Virus record (IMG/VR): IMGVR_UViG_2606217102_000012
Strand: one strand, 5' to 3'
DNA: 4,083 bases
Source of the DNA: a virus
Taxonomy: Duplodnaviria > Heunggongvirae > Uroviricota > Caudoviricetes
A program made the position numbers and the translations under genes. Of the stretch, positions 1 through 4,083 are shown in pieces. How positions within the stretch are numbered: the first letter of the stretch is position 1; each line of letters starts with the position of its first letter. The notes under the pieces are model-generated. The model was not told where the DNA came from. It searched no databases and saw only the letters and a program-made list of their open reading frames with translations.

Positions 1-99
1 GGACAATTCCCATCACGGCGTAAACTCGGCGGTCGTTCCGTTGGCTGGTCTTTATCCGAAGTTCTGGCATGGAAGGACAGCCGCGAGGCAGTTCACTAA
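1..99 (+). CDS. alpA: AlpA/Vis-family phage regulatory protein (excisionase-like HTH), C-terminal fragment; 5' end lies outside the window
   Basis: Frame 1 reads GQFPSRRKLGGRSVGWSLSEVLAWKDSREAVH then stop (TAA 97-99). The FPxxRxLGxxSVGWxxxExxxW pattern matches the conserved C-terminus of AlpA-family proteins as recalled from memory (E. coli CP4-57 AlpA ...FPKKRMLGVKSVGWIEAEIDEWL...). Not verified by search. Confidence 0.7.
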   Translation, partial: GQFPSRRKLGGRSVGWSLSEVLAWKDSREAVH

Positions 100-240
100 T
101 CAGGCTGGCGGCGCACCGCCGCCACCCATCCACTAACACAGAGATCTAACCATGAATACTGGATATACGCCCGAACAGGGGCGGGGCTTCGTTCGTCCTG
201 GTGAAACTAAAAAGCCATGTTATCGGGTATTTTCAGGCAT

Positions 241-271
241 AAAAAAAGCGGCCCCGATAAGGAACCGCCTT
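241..271 (-). terminator. second, weaker hairpin plus T-run (possible back-up or bidirectional terminator between alpA and the minus-strand cassette)
   Basis: Imperfect stem GCGG(c)CC (248-254) / GG(a)CCGC (262-268) with a 7-nt loop. On the minus strand it is followed by a run of 7 T (plus-strand A-run 241-247); on the plus strand only by CTTTCT. Stem is short and interrupted. Confidence 0.3.
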
Positions 272-360
272 TCTGAACAATTAACCTGCTGCGAAAAAAA
301 TGGATCAGTGCAGGGGAATTATATCAACCGTGTGGTGAAGCGCCACTATTGCCGGATAAC

Positions 361-393
361 AAGCAAAACAAAGGCGACCGCAAAAGGGTCGCC
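361..393 (-). terminator. Rho-independent terminator candidate for the minus-strand RHH cassette
   Basis: Perfect 7-bp GC-rich inverted repeat GGCGACC (373-379) / GGTCGCC (387-393) with a 7-nt loop. On the minus strand the hairpin is followed immediately by TTTGTTTTGCTT (revcomp of 361-372). It lies 67 nt past the stop of the 460..633 gene. Confidence 0.55.
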
Positions 394-459
394 AGTGGGA
401 ACAAGGGAAAACAAAAGCATCACCAACAATGCCACATTTGCGGCTGGTGGGCAATGCAA

Positions 460-633
460 TCAGTCTGGTTCAGTTCGTTGCCATACCTGCAATGAGCGCT
501 TTTCCCTGTACTCTTTAAGGAATTGCTCAAGGGCAAAAGCACATGGCGCGAATCTTTCTGATTCATGCTCTATCTTTCTGCGCCGTCTTTTCCGTGTCGG
601 TGATAATGTTTTGGTCAATTCTTTATCGGTCAT
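460..633 (-). CDS. small highly basic hypothetical protein (57 aa; 62 aa if the upstream ATG at 648 is used), second gene of the RHH cassette
   Basis: Minus-strand ORF in tandem with the RHH gene (42-57 nt gap). The ATG at 633..631 has a weak AGGG SD-like sequence 7 nt upstream; stop TGA at 462..460. Product MTDKELTKTLSPTRKRRRRKIEHESERFAPCAFALEQFLKEYREKRSLQVWQRTEPD, with an R/K-rich stretch (TRKRRRRK). Followed 67 nt downstream by a hairpin plus T-tract. No family recognised. Confidence 0.45.
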   Translation of the reverse strand: MTDKELTKTLSPTRKRRRRKIEHESERFAPCAFALEQFLKEYREKRSLQVWQRTEPD

Positions 634-690
634 TGTGTTGCCCTGCATAGCAATGCGCCGTAGTTACTCACACCACGGCGCTGGTGATGG

Positions 691-870
691 TTACTCCTGC
701 TCTTTGGCCTTGCGACGCTGGCGGCGTTTGATCTCGCCTTTTGCGGCAGTAACTAAAAAACCAGCGGTACTTTCGCCAGGTTCTTTAAGTTGCTCAATAT
801 CATCCATTACTTCATGTGGGATTCTGACAGTTGTCATTTGTGATTTTGCGTTCTTTGCACCAGTTGCCAT
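691..870 (-). CDS. Arc/MetJ-type ribbon-helix-helix DNA-binding protein (59 aa), candidate element repressor or antitoxin-like regulator
   Basis: Minus-strand ATG at 870..868 preceded by AGGAGA (revcomp of 876-881) at good spacing; stop TAA at 693..691. Product MATGAKNAKSQMTTVRIPHEVMDDIEQLKEPGESTAGFLVTAAKGEIKRRQRRKAKEQE. The segment VRIPHEVMDDIEQL...GESTAGFLVTAAKGEI follows the Arc-repressor RHH pattern (beta-strand R-x-P-x-E-hydrophobic, then two helices). The six-frame track extends this ORF to 1038, but that N-terminal extension has no RBS and overlaps the promoter region. Confidence 0.65.
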   Translation of the reverse strand: MATGAKNAKSQMTTVRIPHEVMDDIEQLKEPGESTAGFLVTAAKGEIKRRQRRKAKEQE

Positions 871-891
871 TTCTGGATCTCCTAAAAATTG

Positions 892-984
892 GTGTATGTC
901 AGTATACGCAAAAAAAATGATAAAAAAAGGCTTGAAGTGTATTTCACCAGTGAGTAAATTAAAAAGCAAAGGTGAAATACACCT
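892..984. promoter_or_regulatory. divergent promoter/operator region between the minus-strand RHH gene and the plus-strand small-gene/rep operon
   Basis: Perfect 12-bp inverted repeat GTGTATTTCACC (937-948) / GGTGAAATACAC (971-982) separated by a 22-bp AT-rich spacer, plus another GTGTAT at 892-897. A-tracts at 909-929. Candidate sigma70-like elements: plus-strand TTGAAG (932-937), 17 bp, TAAATT (955-960); minus-strand -10-like TATACT (revcomp of 901-906). Promoter hexamers are weak matches and unverified. Confidence 0.4.
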
Positions 985-1063
985 AAAAGAGCAACGCCCC
1001 GCAGTGCTCGCAACACATGCAGGGCGTCTAACCACCAACGATAACGAGAGTATCGAGGTAGCT

Positions 1064-1270
1064 ATGAGAAATTATACCAGACACCCGCAAGGGCGGGACT
1101 CGTACAACCTGAATAAATACATCTGGCGTTTTATCGCCCTGAGCACGGCACAACCGCGCGTGATTACCATTGAGGCCACCAGCGAACAGGAAGCGCGTCA
1201 GCAATCTCCTGATGGCTGCGTGATGGTATTCGCTGCCCGTATTCGCCAGGGGGAAACCTATGCACAATAA
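1064..1270 (+). CDS. small hypothetical protein (68 aa), tentatively Icd-like (host cell division inhibitor family); first gene of the plus-strand operon
   Basis: ATG 1064 preceded by GAGG (1055-1058) with 5-nt spacing; stop TAA 1268-1270. Product MRNYTRHPQGRDSYNLNKYIWRFIALSTAQPRVITIEATSEQEARQQSPDGCVMVFAARIRQGETYAQ. The ...EAxSEQEAR...FAAR... C-terminal pattern resembles what I recall of Icd-like small proteins in P4-like/satellite islands; family assignment is from memory only. These are the last 68 codons of the otherwise spurious 152..1270 ORF. Confidence 0.5.
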   Translation: MRNYTRHPQGRDSYNLNKYIWRFIALSTAQPRVITIEATSEQEARQQSPDGCVMVFAARIRQGETYAQ

Positions 1271-1721: not shown

Positions 1722-2009
1722 ATGAAAAATAAAAATTCTGGCTTTACTGCCAGCGGCCCCGCTCGGCCTGAAATCCGCCCCGGCGATATTTTCCGGGATA
1801 ACTATGGCGGCACGGTAACGATAAAAGGCGTGGCAGAACGGCGCATCACTTACCGCCGTGATGGCTACGAATATGACTGCGTGATGCCTGTTTATCAGTT
1901 CCGGCGTGATTTCACGCTGGTGGGCCATCGTAAAGCCGTAAATCAGAAACGTGCAGCAAGTCATATCCGCAAAATTCGTGAAATGCTGGTCGCAGGGGGT
2001 AAAAAATGA
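1722..2009 (+). CDS. hypothetical basic protein (95 aa), translationally coupled to the downstream helicase gene
   Basis: ATG 1722 begins 6 nt after the upstream stop; its stop TGA (2007-2009) overlaps the ATG of the rep gene (2006-2008) in ATGA. Product MKNKNSGFTASGPARPEIRPGDIFRDNYGGTVTIKGVAERRITYRRDGYEYDCVMPVYQFRRDFTLVGHRKAVNQKRAASHIRKIREMLVAGGKK. No family recognised. Confidence 0.55.
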   Translation: MKNKNSGFTASGPARPEIRPGDIFRDNYGGTVTIKGVAERRITYRRDGYEYDCVMPVYQFRRDFTLVGHRKAVNQKRAASHIRKIREMLVAGGKK

Positions 2010-3412
2010 AACTGGCACCGAACGTAAAACTGTTACCGAAAGATAAACACACTGAGGCGGTTATTTTTGCGGGTGATAATGCTCACTCCTTTGCAGAACA
2101 TTACATGATTGCACAGGCCAAAAAAGCAGGCGATCCCATCCCTCCGGTTTACCTGGGCCGTTATCAGTTAAGCGAACTGGACAACCTGCAGATTGTTGAT
2201 GAGGGGCGATACAGGGTAACGGTGATACGCGCCGGAAATATTGACGAAGCGCAGCTGTTAACCATAGCGACAAAACTGGCGATCGCCGGAGTCCAGGAAG
2301 CGCGGCTGCTTTCTGAAAACTTCGAATTACTGGAGAAATGGACCGACCAGCTTCCACGGCTACGGGAGACATGGGAGAGAGGGGAAAGCCTGATCATGAA
2401 CGGAGGAAAACAAAAAATCACGCTACCGATTTCATGGGGTTCTGAGGGATTCGACGCGCAGCAAAGCTACGTAATTAAGGGGCTTATTCCGGCTGAATCA
2501 TTATGCAGCACCTACGGGGCCAGCGGTTCTTATAAATCGTTCCTGGCTATTTCCTGGTCGTGCCATGTTGCCACAGGTATGGCATGGGGAGGCCGCAGGG
2601 TAAGTAAGGGCGCGGTTATCTATATCGCTGGCGAAGGCAGTATGGGCGTAAAACGCCGCGTTAAGGCGTGGGAGATAACCCACGACAAGGTGGTTACGGA
2701 TTTGTGCATCGTTAACGCGCCTGTCTTCCCTGCATCGCCTGACTATGTGGAGCAGGTTATCAGGACCGCCGGATTAGTGCAGGACAGAACGGGCGAAAGG
2801 GTGCGGATGATTGTCATTGACACGCTGGCCCGTTGCTTTGGTGGTCATGATGAAAATGACTCCCGCGACATGGGGGCGTTTATCCAGGGGTGTGACGCGA
2901 TAAAGCAGGCCACGGGGGCCACGGTTCTGGTTGTGCATCATTCCGGCAAGGATGAGACGAAAGGGGCGCGGGGTTCCAGTGCATTCCGTGCGGCGCTTGA
3001 TGCTGAGTTCCGAATCAGTCGGGAACATTCAGAGGCTACGGCGCTGGTTGCAGCATGTACGAAGATGAAGGACGCGGAGGAGCCAAAAGAAAGCGCCTAC
3101 GACCTTAAGAGCGTGGAGGTATTTACGGATCCTGAGGGTGAAGAAATCGTGTCCATGGTGGTGATTGACGTTCCCCGCGCCCCTGCTGAACTGGAGCGCA
3201 TAGAGGAGGCCGGGAACAAGACGGAAAATCACACGGCTTTATGGGGTTGTATCCGGTCACGTATACAGCATGGTGATAAATGCACGATCCCGCTGCTACG
3301 TGATGACATGAAAAAGCTGGGATATGACACAAAACACCTTAAACGATGGTTAGCCAAACTGGAAAAAGACGGCGTGATTTGCGTCGATGGGGATGATGTT
3401 CACCCACTGTAA
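2006..3412 (+). CDS. RepA-like RecA-fold (AAA_25-type) ATPase / replicative helicase-initiator of the element (468 aa)
   Basis: Long ORF with SD AGGGGG (1994-1999) 6 nt before the ATG. P-loop-like motif YGASGSYKSFLAI; Walker B / helicase motif RMIVIDTLARCF followed by HDENDSRDM; motif TVLVVHHSGKDETKGARGSSAFRAALDAEFRI typical of RepA/DnaB-like RecA-fold helicases. N-terminal ~150 aa and C-terminal ~90 aa regions (...DDMKKLGYDTKHLKRWLAKLEKDGVI..., possibly winged-helix) are unassigned. Iteron array begins at its stop codon. Confidence 0.85.
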   Translation: MKLAPNVKLLPKDKHTEAVIFAGDNAHSFAEHYMIAQAKKAGDPIPPVYLGRYQLSELDNLQIVDEGRYRVTVIRAGNIDEAQLLTIATKLAIAGVQEARLLSENFELLEKWTDQLPRLRETWERGESLIMNGGKQKITLPISWGSEGFDAQQSYVIKGLIPAESLCSTYGASGSYKSFLAISWSCHVATGMAWGGRRVSKGAVIYIAGEGSMGVKRRVKAWEITHDKVVTDLCIVNAPVFPASPDYVEQVIRTAGLVQDRTGERVRMIVIDTLARCFGGHDENDSRDMGAFIQGCDAIKQATGATVLVVHHSGKDETKGARGSSAFRAALDAEFRISREHSEATALVAACTKMKDAEEPKESAYDLKSVEVFTDPEGEEIVSMVVIDVPRAPAELERIEEAGNKTENHTALWGCIRSRIQHGDKCTIPLLRDDMKKLGYDTKHLKRWLAKLEKDGVICVDGDDVHPL

Positions 3413-3612
3413 AAAGTGGGCGTTAAAAGTGGGAATAGTGGGTAATTTAACTGGAATTTAACAAAATCGCCCACTTTCCCACGTGTATACATCCCAAAAA
3501 GTGGGCACTAAAAAAATTCTTATGAAACAGTACGATATAAAACCACAAAATCCCAGGTGGGACGAAGTGGGAAACCATGAAAAGTGGGTAGAAAAAGTGG
3601 GCGCAGGTGGGC
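3403..3612. repeat. iteron array, candidate origin of replication (ori) of the element
   Basis: Direct copies of (A)AGTGGG ending at 3420, 3433, 3442, 3505, 3571, 3588 and 3601, plus AGGTGGG variants ending at 3561 and 3611. Inverted copies CCCACT at 3403-3408 and 3470-3475, and CCCAC at 3478-3482. Two clusters (3403-3505 and 3555-3612) flank an AT-rich ~45-bp segment (3506-3550). AATTTAAC occurs twice (3444-3451, 3455-3462). Placement directly 3' of the helicase gene matches the rep-ori layout of SaPI/PICI-type elements. Confidence 0.7.
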
Positions 3613-3614
3613 GC

Positions 3615-3866
3615 ATGACCAGAAAAACCAGAGATAAGACAACACCAAAATATCGCGCATTAGACATGACAGAGCACGCCTTAAAGGTGGCAATCAGAAC
3701 GATAGACCGCCACGCCGGAGAAGGATACGCGAAAGCACATCCCGAACTGATAAGCGCATTCATGATCACGGCGGCGGCAAATTTTGCCACACTGACAGAA
3801 CGGGAGATTGCCGAAGCGGAACAGGTGACAACCATCAACGTTAAAACCGGAGAGCAGACAGCATGA
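3615..3866 (+). CDS. hypothetical protein (83 aa); start uncertain
   Basis: ATG 3615 preceded by AGGTGG (3605-3610, itself an iteron variant) with 4-nt spacing; stop TGA 3864-3866 overlaps the next ATG (3863) in ATGA. Product MTRKTRDKTTPKYRALDMTEHALKVAIRTIDRHAGEGYAKAHPELISAFMITAAANFATLTEREIAEAEQVTTINVKTGEQTA. The track's start at 3483 is a GTG and would make the iterons coding, which is judged unlikely. Confidence 0.45.
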   Translation: MTRKTRDKTTPKYRALDMTEHALKVAIRTIDRHAGEGYAKAHPELISAFMITAAANFATLTEREIAEAEQVTTINVKTGEQTA

Positions 3867-4083
3867 CAGCACAGATAGCGGCTTACGGGCGGCTGGTGGC
3901 TGACCCGCAGCTAAAGACCACCAGCAAAGGGACACAAATGGCGATGGCGAGTATGGCGGTTCCCCTGCCATGCAGCCAGGCAGATGACGGAACGGCGACG
4001 ATGTGGTTATCTGTCCTGGCGTTTGGCAGACAGGCCGACGCACTGGCAAAACACCACAAAGGCGAACTGGTGAGCGTGGCGGG
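3863..4083 (+). CDS. SSB-like OB-fold single-stranded DNA-binding protein, N-terminal part (3' end outside window)
   Basis: ATG 3863 with GGAGAG (3849-3854) upstream; open to the window end. Product MTAQIAAYGRLVADPQLKTTSKGTQMAMASMAVPLPCSQADDGTATMWLSVLAFGRQADALAKHHKGELVSVAG. It aligns by eye with the SSB N-terminus (E. coli SSB [29 protein letters not shown] ... [30 protein letters not shown]): G-x-L-x-x-DP-x-h-x-x-T-x-x-G, a W-containing strand, F-G-x-x-A-x-x-h-x-x-h-x-KG-x-x-V-x-h-x-G. Confidence 0.6.
   Translation, partial: MTAQIAAYGRLVADPQLKTTSKGTQMAMASMAVPLPCSQADDGTATMWLSVLAFGRQADALAKHHKGELVSVA

What the first reader, a model, noticed from the sequence alone, without database searches (positions are those of the whole stretch)
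2006..3412. RepA-like helicase with a non-canonical P-loop (GASGSYKS: Tyr where the Gly preceding Lys is expected) and no visible primase domain
The DNA reads ggg gcc agc ggt tct tat aaa tcg, i.e. G-A-S-G-S-Y-K-S, whereas canonical Walker A is GxxxxGK[S/T]. Either this family tolerates Tyr here or the ATPase is altered. By eye the 468-aa protein has no TOPRIM or zinc-ribbon primase signature, unlike the primase-helicase fusions of P4 alpha or SaPI Pri-Rep, which suggests priming is borrowed from the host or a helper phage. The unassigned N-terminal ~150 aa and C-terminal ~90 aa are candidate origin-recognition domains.
Basis: partly seen in the sequence, partly recalled or inferred. Interest (0 to 1): 0.5.

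Follow-up and report, generated by a model that had tools for sequence, protein, structure and literature searches.

The report
Satellite replication helicase, odd P-loop
This gene encodes the replication helicase of a small E. coli phage-parasite island. The tyrosine in its ATP-binding loop is a normal trait of a large helicase clade, not a defect, and the protein has no primase domain.

Summary
ORF 2006-3412 encodes a 468-aa Pfam AAA_25 / RSF1010-RepA-like protein whose Walker A reads GASGSYKS, with Tyr176 where the Gly before the Lys is expected.

The Tyr is not an anomaly of this gene. All 120 closest homologues have G[AP]SGSYKS. Among 146 cluster representatives of the helicase domain, 92 carry Tyr, Phe or Leu (a few carry other residues) and 54 carry Gly. 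All other catalytic residues are 100% conserved in both groups. Proteins with the aromatic residue include genuine zinc-ribbon/TOPRIM and PriCT_2 primase-helicase fusions, and the replicative helicase-primase of Salmonella Jersey-type phages. No ATPase assay exists for any of them.

No primase domain is detectable.
- Residues 1-125 form a separate alpha/beta module. It is also found, at 46-57% identity, on the unrelated D5-type Rep of the tested island EcCICFT073 and on a DUF927 protein of a Klebsiella phage. Each of the three has different iterons, so this module does not set origin specificity.
- Residues 405-468 form a winged helix that co-varies with the iterons.
- The origin lies directly downstream at 3403-3611, with AAAGTGGG repeats flanking AT-rich tracts.

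The setting is an EcCICFT073-like phage-inducible chromosomal island, and the protein is identical to RefSeq WP_000761817.1. This is a new variant of a known kind, of moderate interest.

The parts
1..99 (+). 3' end of the alpA-type regulator gene of the island (32 codons plus stop)
   Evidence: Pfam Phage_AlpA, E = 1.1e-7. In the near-identical island L001 an HTH regulator follows the integrase.
1722..2009 (+). DUF4222 gene immediately upstream. Its TGA stop overlaps the rep ATG (ATGA), which suggests translational coupling.
   Evidence: Pfam DUF4222, E = 1.1e-25. The same DUF4222-then-rep order is seen in L005 (EcCICFT073), L006, L007 and L008.
2006..3412 (+). rep: the 468-aa RepA-like helicase and initiator, 100% identical to RefSeq WP_000761817.1
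2006..2380 (+). N-terminal alpha/beta module (aa 1-125). It has no cysteine and no family assignment, and it is shared with two other helicase classes.
   Evidence: AF2 pLDDT is about 80-91 over most of aa 20-125, with the order b-a-b-a-b-a-b-b-a. It is 46% identical to EcCICFT073 Rep aa 1-131 and 57% identical to a Klebsiella phage DUF927 protein. There is no Pfam, NCBIfam or PDB sequence match.
2441..2956 (+). AAA_25 (RecA-fold) ATPase core, aa 146-317
2516..2539 (+). Walker A variant GASGSYKS (Tyr176 replaces the canonical Gly; Lys177 and Ser178 are retained)
2633..2635 (+). Glu210, the predicted catalytic glutamate (motif H1a, 'AGEG')
   Evidence: Aligned to the 'PAED' Glu of RepA. Conserved in 146 of 146 representatives.
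2819..2821 (+). Asp272, Walker B ('IVIDTLAR')
   Evidence: Aligned to RepA 'MVLDTLRR'. Conserved in 146 of 146 representatives.
2936..2971 (+). The HHSGK motif (His311, His312, Lys315) through Arg322 of 'ARGSS', the predicted gamma-phosphate sensor and arginine finger
   Evidence: Aligned to RepA 'LHHASK ... SRGS'. His311, His312, Arg322 and Gly323 are conserved in 146 of 146 representatives.
3218..3409 (+). C-terminal winged-helix domain (aa 405-468), the predicted iteron-binding domain
3403..3611 (.). Replication origin: 9 copies of AGTGGG (consensus AAAGTGGG) plus 2 AGGTGGG variants, in two groups
   Evidence: AGTGGG occurs 10 times in the window against 1.7 expected, and 9 of the 10 lie here. 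All 9 matches to ARGTGGG lie in 3414-3611 against 0.94 expected. The layout matches the ori of Gram-negative islands described in PMC6092414.
3425..3554 (.). AT-rich tracts between the iteron groups (GC minima of 30% at 3425-3464 and 3485-3554), the candidate DNA-unwinding element
3615..3866 (+). Conserved 83-aa gene of unknown function between the ori and ssb; also present in EcCICFT073
   Evidence: Annotated in L001 and L005. The homologous sequence is visible. No Pfam match.
3863..4083 (+). 5' part of the island's own ssb gene (cut by the end of the window)
   Evidence: Pfam SSB, E = 3e-8. The full protein in L001 ends in ...GDNIPF.

Best explanation
The gene encodes the replication initiator-helicase of an EcCICFT073-like phage-inducible chromosomal island (a phage satellite) integrated at a tRNA-Pro gene of E. 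coli.

The proposed mechanism has three parts.
1. The C-terminal winged helix (aa 405-468) binds the AAAGTGGG iterons directly downstream of the gene.
2. The RecA-fold AAA_25 core (aa ~140-395) assembles as a ring on the AT-rich DNA between the iteron groups and unwinds it using ATP.
3. Priming and synthesis are left to the host, most likely DnaG and Pol III, helped by the island's own SSB with its conserved IPF tail. Neither the protein nor the island has a primase.

Tyr176 in the P-loop is the normal state of a large clade of these helicases, in which Tyr or Phe, sometimes Leu, replaces Gly. It is compatible with an active ATPase.

The N-terminal 125 aa are a separate, exchangeable module that enterobacterial satellite initiators attach to three different motor types. 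It most likely makes a host- or island-specific protein contact, for example recruiting the primase or SSB. It does not read the origin sequence.

Shown here: domain identities, motif conservation, synteny, the iterons, and the iteron/C-terminus covariation. Inferred: ATPase and helicase activity, ring assembly, DNA binding by the winged helix, use of host DnaG, and the role of the N-terminal domain.
For: Helicase identity:
- AAA_25 match at E = 7e-43.
- Alignment to RSF1010 RepA.

The Tyr is a clade trait:
- 120 of 120 close homologues have G[AP]SGSYKS.
- Among 146 representatives the residue is Y 45, F 34, L 7, other 6, G 54, with at least 13 Gly/non-Gly switches on a neighbour-joining tree.
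- K177, E210, D272, T273, E283, H311, H312, R322, G323 and D332 are 100% conserved in both groups.

Proteins with the aromatic P-loop are partners of real primases and of free-living phages:
- Zn_Ribbon_Prim + Toprim_3 fusions (P0121, P0123, P0124, P0137), PriCT_2 fusions (P0126, P0127) and a DnaB N-terminal-domain fusion (P0125), all carrying GxSGSYKS or GSPGSYKS.
- The Jerseyvirus Ent3 'replicative helicase-primase' has GESGTYKSF. Vibrio phages have GPGGSYKSF and GATGTFKTF.

Satellite context:
- Gene order is int, alpA, Icd-like, DUF4222, rep, ori, small ORF, ssb, capsid, decoration, TerS. This is the same order as EcCICFT073.
- Rep plus ori of EcCICFT073 drive plasmid replication in DH5alpha (PMC6092414).

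Origin:
-.

Winged helix and covariation:
-. The iterons are AAAGTGGG in the window, AAAGTGAGG in L008 and AAGTGCGCG in L006 and L007, and the C-terminal sequence type changes in step.

The N-terminal module does not set specificity:
- The same module (46-57% identity) sits on a D5-type Rep with GGTAGAYA iterons and on a DUF927 protein with TGAACCAAC iterons.

No primase:
-.

SSB tail:
- The island's SSB ends in ...NIPF.
Against: - No member of the aromatic P-loop clade has a published ATPase or helicase assay or a solved structure. The only PDB relative is RepA, which has Gly. No paper in the searchable library mentions the motif.
- The AF2 model is unreliable around the P-loop (aa 150-175, pLDDT below 50) and over aa 313-396. 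It therefore says nothing about how the Tyr is accommodated.
- The replication experiment was done on EcCICFT073, whose motor is of a different helicase class. Only the N-terminal domain and the gene order are shared.
- The iteron/C-terminus covariation rests on four loci.
- Use of host DnaG is an inference from absence. The N-terminal module might prime by an unrecognised mechanism.
Confidence: 0.7

Rival explanations
1. The Tyr disables or strongly alters ATP hydrolysis. On this reading the protein is an ATP-binding origin-recognition or loader factor that recruits host DnaB, rather than a motor in its own right.
For: The Gly before the Lys is among the most conserved positions of P-loop NTPases (general knowledge). 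No activity data exist for any member with the aromatic residue. AF2 gives low confidence at the P-loop.
Against: Every other catalytic residue is invariant in 92 of 92 non-Gly representatives: the Walker A Lys and Ser/Thr, the catalytic Glu, the Walker B Asp, the HH motif and the Arg finger. Such conservation is not expected in a dead enzyme. The same P-loop occurs in the annotated replicative helicase-primase of propagating Jersey-type phages and in TOPRIM and PriCT_2 primase fusions. Gly and aromatic states interconvert at least 13 times among close relatives.
Confidence: 0.1
2. The N-terminal 125 aa are a cryptic primase, either a highly diverged TOPRIM or a new type. The protein would then be a primase-helicase after all, like P4 alpha or T7 gp4.
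Against: The hhalign probability is only 0.8-1.4%. Pfam, NCBIfam, PHROG and PDB-profile searches find nothing. The TOPRIM catalytic Glu and DxD positions are Ala22 and Gly77/Asn78 in that alignment. There is no cysteine, so no zinc ribbon. The whole-model fold hits cannot be assigned to this domain. The 'primase' labels in databases probably come from D5_N and Pox_D5 naming.
Confidence: 0.12
3. The protein is mainly an interference or defence ATPase that blocks helper-phage replication, not the island's replicase.
For: Satellites often carry interference functions, and RecA-fold ATPases occur in defence systems. No direct functional data exist for this protein.
Against: The gene occupies the replication slot of the island, directly followed by an iteron/AT-rich origin and ssb. 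This is the same layout as the experimentally tested EcCICFT073 replicon. No other replication initiator is encoded in the island.
Confidence: 0.04

Closest known systems
RSF1010 RepA, a hexameric replicative helicase (PDB 1g8y; Pfam AAA_25)
   Different: RepA has the canonical GGAGKS, whereas this protein has GSYKS. RepA is a bare 279-aa motor that relies on a separate initiator (RepC) and primase (RepB'), by general knowledge. This protein adds a 125-aa N-terminal module and a C-terminal winged helix, and appears to be its own initiator.
The Pri/Rep protein and ori of EcCICFT073, the Gram-negative phage-inducible chromosomal island studied by Fillol-Salom et al. 2018 (PMC6092414)
   Same: The gene order is the same: int, alpA, Icd-like, DUF4222, rep, ori, small ORF, ssb, capsid, decoration. 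The N-terminal module is shared at 46% identity, E = 1e-26. The ori architecture is the same, with two iteron sets flanking an AT-rich region just 3' of rep.
   Different: The motor is of a different class. EcCICFT073 has D5_N + DUF5906 + Pox_D5, whereas this protein has AAA_25 plus a winged helix. The iterons are unrelated: GGTAGAYA against AAAGTGGG. Only EcCICFT073 has been tested experimentally.
Primase-helicase fusions: P4 alpha, T7 gp4, SaPI Pri-Rep, and the uncharacterised Zn-ribbon/Toprim_3-AAA_25 proteins P0121, P0123 and P0124
   Same: P0121-type proteins share the helicase plus C-terminal module at 50-60% identity, including the GxSGSYKS loop. The overall logic is shared with P4 alpha and SaPI Rep (general knowledge; PMC9371898 listed): one polypeptide carries an N-terminal accessory domain, a motor and a C-terminal origin binder.
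   Different: This protein has no zinc ribbon, TOPRIM or archaeo-eukaryotic primase domain. The primase part is replaced by the 125-aa module.
Replicative helicase-primase of Jersey-type Salmonella phages (for example vB_SenS-Ent3 gp43)
   Same: It has a homologous AAA_25 core with an aromatic P-loop, GESGTYKSF.
   Different: Identity is only about 29%. It is a much larger protein (728 aa, from the 34781-36967 CDS) from an autonomous phage, with a different N-terminal region.

Membership tests
Pfam AAA_25 / RepA-like RecA-fold (SF4-type) helicases | Profile match above the curated threshold | tested here: met
   147 bits against a cutoff of 27, over aa 146-317. RepA 1g8y matches at E = 2e-4.
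Pfam AAA_25 / RepA-like RecA-fold (SF4-type) helicases | Canonical Walker A, GxxxxGK[ST] | tested here: not met
   The motif is GASGSYKS, with Tyr176 at the second Gly and Lys-Ser kept. The same deviation occurs in 92 of 146 related cluster representatives, so it is a subfamily state and not a reason for exclusion.
Pfam AAA_25 / RepA-like RecA-fold (SF4-type) helicases | Catalytic Glu, Walker B Asp, His motif (H3) and arginine finger | tested here: met
   E210, D272, H311/H312 and R322 align to the RepA motifs. They are invariant in 146 of 146 representatives.
Pfam AAA_25 / RepA-like RecA-fold (SF4-type) helicases | RecA-like fold | tested here: met
Pfam AAA_25 / RepA-like RecA-fold (SF4-type) helicases | Hexameric ring; DNA-stimulated ATPase; 5'-3' unwinding | not testable with these tools
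   Needs biochemistry or a multimer structure.
Replication module of Gram-negative phage-inducible chromosomal islands (EcCICFT073 type) | Location in a unidirectional int-alpA-...-rep island next to a tRNA or other attachment site, with packaging or capsid genes downstream | tested here: met
   L001 reads tRNA-Pro, int, HTH..., DUF4222, rep, ssb, capsid, decoration, TerS. The window starts with the 3' end of alpA.
Replication module of Gram-negative phage-inducible chromosomal islands (EcCICFT073 type) | An ori immediately 3' of rep, with two iteron sets flanking an AT-rich region | tested here: met
   compared with the description in PMC6092414.
Replication module of Gram-negative phage-inducible chromosomal islands (EcCICFT073 type) | Rep homologous to the tested EcCICFT073 Pri/Rep | tested here: inconclusive
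   Only aa 1-126 are homologous (46% identity). The motor and the C-terminus belong to a different family.
Replication module of Gram-negative phage-inducible chromosomal islands (EcCICFT073 type) | rep plus ori are sufficient for autonomous replication; the island is induced and packaged by a helper phage | not testable with these tools
   Requires a plasmid-maintenance assay and a transfer assay.
Primase-helicase fusion (P4 alpha, T7 gp4 or SaPI Pri-Rep type) | A primase catalytic domain: TOPRIM with Glu and DxD, or an archaeo-eukaryotic Prim-Pol domain | tested here: not met
   No Pfam, NCBIfam or PHROG match in aa 1-145. hhalign against the Toprim_3 alignment gives Prob 0.8-1.4%, and the catalytic positions are Ala and Gly/Asn.
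Primase-helicase fusion (P4 alpha, T7 gp4 or SaPI Pri-Rep type) | Zinc-ribbon DNA-recognition element | tested here: not met
   There is no cysteine in aa 1-135 (sequence) and no Zn_Ribbon_Prim match.
Winged-helix origin-binding domain | A three-helix bundle plus beta-hairpin fold | tested here: met
Winged-helix origin-binding domain | Sequence-specific binding to the iterons | tested here: inconclusive
   The C-terminal sequence type co-varies with the iteron type in four loci. There is no binding assay.

The most novel reading that the evidence does not exclude
The aromatic residue at the Gly position of Walker A marks a distinct way of binding nucleotide in a large clade of phage and satellite replicative helicases that has not been described in the literature searched. 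For example, the Tyr or Phe side chain could pack on the nucleotide or on the neighbouring subunit and change NTP preference or the coupling between subunits. In addition, the 125-aa N-terminal module could be a catalytically dead descendant of TOPRIM that enterobacterial satellites reuse on three unrelated motors as an adaptor to capture the host primase.
Probability: 0.2. Interest if true: 0.65.

Novelty: new variant of a known kind. Interest (0 to 1): 0.42.

Why it matters
The Gly-Lys-Ser/Thr end of Walker A is treated as almost untouchable, and motif-based annotation and 'dead enzyme' calls rely on it. Here a large clade of phage, satellite and prophage replicative helicases carries Tyr or Phe at that Gly while keeping every other catalytic residue. 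A non-canonical P-loop should therefore not be read as inactivation in this family, and the family offers a natural system for asking what that Gly is really needed for.

The work also clarifies the 'Pri' proteins of Gram-negative phage-inducible islands. They are modular, with one shared N-terminal module, any of three helicase motors, and a C-terminal origin reader. The two Rep proteins of chromosomal islands examined here (this window and EcCICFT073), and the related Klebsiella phage protein, contain no recognisable primase. That bears on how these satellites depend on the host replisome.

Tried and rejected
- Single-sequence AlphaFold gave a poor model (pLDDT 41). It was replaced by a run on a 27-sequence alignment, which is still weak at the P-loop.
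- The N-terminal domain was searched as a profile against PDB sequences. Only chance-level hits came back (best E = 0.21).
- hhalign of the N-terminal domain against a Toprim_3 alignment built from related fusion proteins gave Prob 0.8% with 11 sequences and 1.4% with 64. The motif positions line up, but the result is not significant, so TOPRIM homology is not claimed.
- Whole-model fold searches could not be restricted to the N-terminal domain. The hits to type IA topoisomerases, lumazine synthase and T7 gp4 are ambiguous. The afdb50 library was unavailable.
- A first search with the N-terminal domain alone returned mainly fragments. The profile search returned mostly short or partial proteins. 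It confirmed that the module is widespread in Enterobacteriaceae but added no new partner domains apart from probable deletion fusions.
- Literature searches for the motif strings and for non-canonical Walker A helicases found nothing relevant.
- A cluster look-up of the closest primase-fused relatives found only uncharacterised 'AAA family ATPase' entries from Xenorhabdus, Pantoea, Endozoicomonadaceae and Aeromonas.
- The Rfam scan found no RNA family and the sigma-70 scan found no promoter-like site.
- Two guesses at the CFT073 coordinates missed the island before it was located.
- Rejected: Tyr176 as a sequencing error or pseudogene lesion. It is invariant in homologues and the ORF is intact.
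- Rejected: the N-terminal domain as the iteron reader. The same domain accompanies three unrelated iteron sets.
Full report
**1. The observation**

ORF 2006-3412 on the + strand encodes 468 aa. Its ATG overlaps the stop codon of the upstream DUF4222 gene (ATGA at 2006-2009).

Nucleotides 2516-2539 read ggg gcc agc ggt tct tat aaa tcg, which is G171-A-S-G-S-Y176-K177-S178.

The protein matches Pfam AAA_25 over aa 146-317 with E = 6.8e-43, 147 bits against a cutoff of 27. Its only relative with a solved structure, by sequence, is the RSF1010 RepA helicase (1g8y; E = 2e-4 with the single sequence, 4e-4 with a family profile). In those gap-free alignments GSYKS lies over GAGKS. Tyr176 therefore replaces the canonical Gly that precedes the Walker A lysine.

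The protein is 100% identical to RefSeq WP_000761817.1, 'helicase RepA family protein'.

**2. Is the Tyr an anomaly?**

No. The evidence is as follows.

- All 120 best homologues in the 5.8-billion-protein collection (53-96% identity) have G[AP]SGSYKS.
- An exhaustive HMMER search of 1.84 billion cluster representatives gave 31,607 hits.
- For 146 of the best 150, I extracted the helicase domain and aligned it. At the Tyr176 column the counts are:

| Residue | Count |
|---|---|
| Tyr | 45 |
| Phe | 34 |
| Leu | 7 |
| Arg, Cys, Ser or Thr | 6 |
| Gly | 54 |

- On a neighbour-joining tree the aromatic forms make up most of the half nearest the query. There are a few reversions to Gly, and independent non-Gly cases inside the Gly half. 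At least 13 Gly/non-Gly changes are needed.
- In both groups K177, E210, D272, T273, E283, H311, H312, R322, G323 and D332 are 100% conserved. By alignment to RepA these include the Walker A Lys, the catalytic Glu, the Walker B Asp, the His motif and the arginine finger. The functional roles of the RepA motifs are from my own knowledge of that structure.
- The position two residues after the first Gly tends to be Ser in the non-Gly group (73 of 92) and Pro in the Gly group (32 of 54). This hints at a compensating change within the loop.

**3. Are members with the aromatic P-loop real helicases?**

There is no direct assay, but the company they keep says yes.

- The closest non-family representatives (49-60% identical over aa ~136-465, all with GxSGSYKS) are fused to several kinds of N-terminal region:
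  - Zn_Ribbon_Prim + Toprim_3 in P0121, P0123 and P0124 (a more distant representative, P0137, about 41% identical with GSPGSYKS, has the same fusion);
  - PriCT_2 in P0126 and P0127;
  - the DnaB N-terminal domain in P0125.
- Among isolated phages:

| Phage protein | P-loop |
|---|---|
| Salmonella Jerseyvirus Ent3 'replicative helicase-primase' | GESGTYKSF |
| Vibrio phage 1.076.O helicase | GPGGSYKSF |
| Vibrio phage 168E36-1 | GATGTFKTF |
| Escherichia phage SSL-2009a (homologue) | Gly at this position |
| Mycobacteriophage UncleHowie gp57 (homologue) | Gly at this position |
| Caulobacter phage GB2A (homologue) | Gly at this position |

- No paper in the searchable library contains the motif strings.
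- The closest fused relatives are all uncharacterised database entries.

The conclusion 'the family tolerates an aromatic residue here' therefore rests on conservation and context, not on enzymology.

**4. Where the gene sits**

The window matches 1,916 of 5,426 complete E. coli genomes at some level and no phage record.

In strain 504239 the gene lies in a ~10-kb island next to tRNA-Pro. The gene order is: integrase, HTH regulator (the window begins with the alpA 3' end), YlcI/YnfO-like, Icd-like, two small ORFs, DUF4222, this gene, an 83-aa ORF, ssb, major capsid, head decoration, HTH, and a small terminase subunit.

This is the layout of EcCICFT073, the phage-inducible chromosomal island studied by Fillol-Salom et al. 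(PMC6092414). I located EcCICFT073 in CFT073 at 1,377,930-1,388,654.

That paper shows that EcCICFT073 rep plus ori maintain a temperature-sensitive plasmid in DH5alpha without a helper phage. [quoted passage not shown]

**5. The origin**

Directly after the stop codon, and overlapping the last codons, lie 9 copies of AGTGGG within 3403-3601. The whole window contains 10 copies against 1.7 expected by chance, and none of 200 shuffles reached 10.

All 9 matches to ARGTGGG lie in 3414-3611, against 0.94 expected.

The repeats form groups separated by AT-rich tracts. GC falls to 30% at 3425-3464 and at 3485-3554 (repeats also).

**6. The C-terminal domain**

With a 27-sequence alignment, AlphaFold2 gave mean pLDDT 67. 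Confidence is high (80-91) for most of aa 20-125 and for aa 400-468.

Across four islands with this type of Rep, the iteron and the C-terminal sequence change together:

| Locus | Iteron | C-terminal sequence |
|---|---|---|
| Window | AAAGTGGG | ...DTKHLKRWLAKLEKDG... |
| L008 | AAAGTGAGG | ...EMKNFRRWLYKLEGDG... |
| L006 (Yokenella) | AAGTGCGCG | ...GENGRKGFRRWLNKL... |
| L007 | AAGTGCG-type (fewer copies) | ...GENGRKGFNRWLEKL... |

An invariant R-W sits in the third helix, and its neighbours vary. This fits a role for the winged helix as the iteron reader, although four loci is a small sample.

**7. The N-terminal domain**

Residues 1-125 have no Pfam, NCBIfam or PDB-sequence match and contain no cysteine. 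In the representative search only one other full-length cluster shares them. Everything else matches from aa ~136 onward.

The same module is nevertheless present on two other helicase types:

- at 46% identity (E = 1e-26) at the start of the EcCICFT073 Rep, whose remainder is D5_N + DUF5906 + Pox_D5;
- at 57% identity at the start of a 711-aa DUF927 protein of Klebsiella phage P12620-1.

Those two genes are also followed by iteron origins, but with unrelated repeats: GGTAGAYA/CTGTCTACC and TGAACCAAC. The module is therefore exchangeable between three motor classes and does not determine origin specificity.

A profile search shows it is widespread in Escherichia, Shigella, Klebsiella, Enterobacter and Salmonella. 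Sources mostly label it 'DNA primase, partial'. A published clustering of satellite proteins lumped Pox_D5, D5_N, DUF927, Prim-Pol and Prim_Zn_Ribbon proteins into one 'Primase' family (PMC10111431). The shared module may be part of the reason, but that is my inference.

**8. Is the N-terminal module a hidden primase?**

Points in favour:

- It occupies the slot that Toprim_3 fills in the closest fused relatives.
- It has a beta-alpha-beta-alpha-beta-alpha-beta order.
- hhalign puts its invariant A22-G23 under the E-G of the 'EGYATA' motif, A76-G77-N78 under 'DND', and E110-x-W112 under 'DW.D'.

Points against:

- The hhalign probability is only 0.8-1.4%.
- In that alignment the catalytic acidic residues are missing.

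I therefore treat 'degenerate TOPRIM-like adaptor' as a lead and 'cryptic primase' as a minority rival.

**9. Priming**

Neither the protein nor the island has a recognisable primase. The EcCICFT073 Rep also shows only D5_N, DUF5906 and Pox_D5 domains plus the shared module. Yet its rep-ori replicon works in a helper-free host.

The island's own SSB ends in ...GDNIPF. [quoted passage not shown]

One close relative of the helicase carries a DnaB N-terminal domain (P0125). By general knowledge, that domain is the DnaG-binding part of DnaB.

Host DnaG is therefore the most likely source of primers. This is an inference.

**10. Verdict**

The finding is real. Its main 'anomaly' is explained as a clade-wide variant of Walker A in an otherwise intact helicase.

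The gene is the initiator-helicase of an EcCICFT073-like satellite. It has a C-terminal winged helix that probably reads the origin, and an N-terminal module shared among satellite initiators.

Two points may be new, since I found neither described: the breadth of the aromatic P-loop clade, and the three-motor distribution of the N-terminal module. Neither is backed by experiment, and the protein itself is already in RefSeq under a correct general name.

Noticed in passing
window 2006-2380; L005:32242-32634; L002:4995-5402: The first ~125 aa of the protein are a module with no family assignment. It also heads the D5-type Rep of EcCICFT073 (46% identity) and a DUF927 protein of Klebsiella phage P12620-1 (57% identity), so three different helicase motors share one N-terminal domain.
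   Followed up: yes
window 152-1270 (+): The longest ORF upstream (372 aa) is probably not a gene. It runs across the region where the near-identical island L001 has two minus-strand genes (YlcI/YnfO-like and a small ORF) and the plus-strand Icd-like gene. No Pfam match was found for the annotated small ORFs there.
   Followed up: partly
proteins P0312, P0313 and P0372: Some E. coli proteins join the N-terminal Rep module directly to an SSB domain (233 aa) or to a PerC domain (199 aa). These look like deletion derivatives in which the helicase and the origin were lost.
   Followed up: no
protein P0105: A 563-aa E. coli homologue carries a Pfam PF02924 match in front of AAA_25. In L007 the product with a PF02924 (HDPD) hit lies directly after the capsid-protein gene. 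This is probably a rearrangement or a gene-call artefact.
   Followed up: no
window 2006-2009 and 3863-3866: There are ATGA stop/start overlaps between DUF4222 and rep, and between the 83-aa ORF and ssb. These suggest translational coupling. The DUF4222-then-rep pairing is conserved in five islands, whichever Rep motor is present.
   Followed up: partly
alignment A1; The Rep family is mosaic. For example, P0077 has an N-terminal domain like that of EcCICFT073 but a latter half like the window protein. P0040 has the window's N-terminal domain and C-terminal end around a divergent core. This indicates recombination at the domain boundaries.
   Followed up: partly
window 373-393 (-): A strong intrinsic-terminator-like hairpin (GGCGACC...GGTCGCC followed by a T-run) lies on the minus strand, downstream of the minus-strand small genes.
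   Followed up: no
window 3615-3866; L005:34285-34542: An 83-aa ORF between the ori and ssb is conserved between this island and EcCICFT073 even though their Rep motors differ. It has no family match.
   Followed up: no
L001:15767-16189: The island's SSB (140 aa) ends in ...GDNIPF, which keeps the partner-binding tip of bacterial SSB.
   Followed up: partly
protein P0128 aa 81-157: A 506-aa representative with the Tyr P-loop has a region just before its helicase that weakly resembles the second half of the N-terminal module (E = 0.006 in a 149-sequence set). It may be a distant relative of the module outside the Enterobacteriaceae family of full-length homologues.
   Followed up: partly
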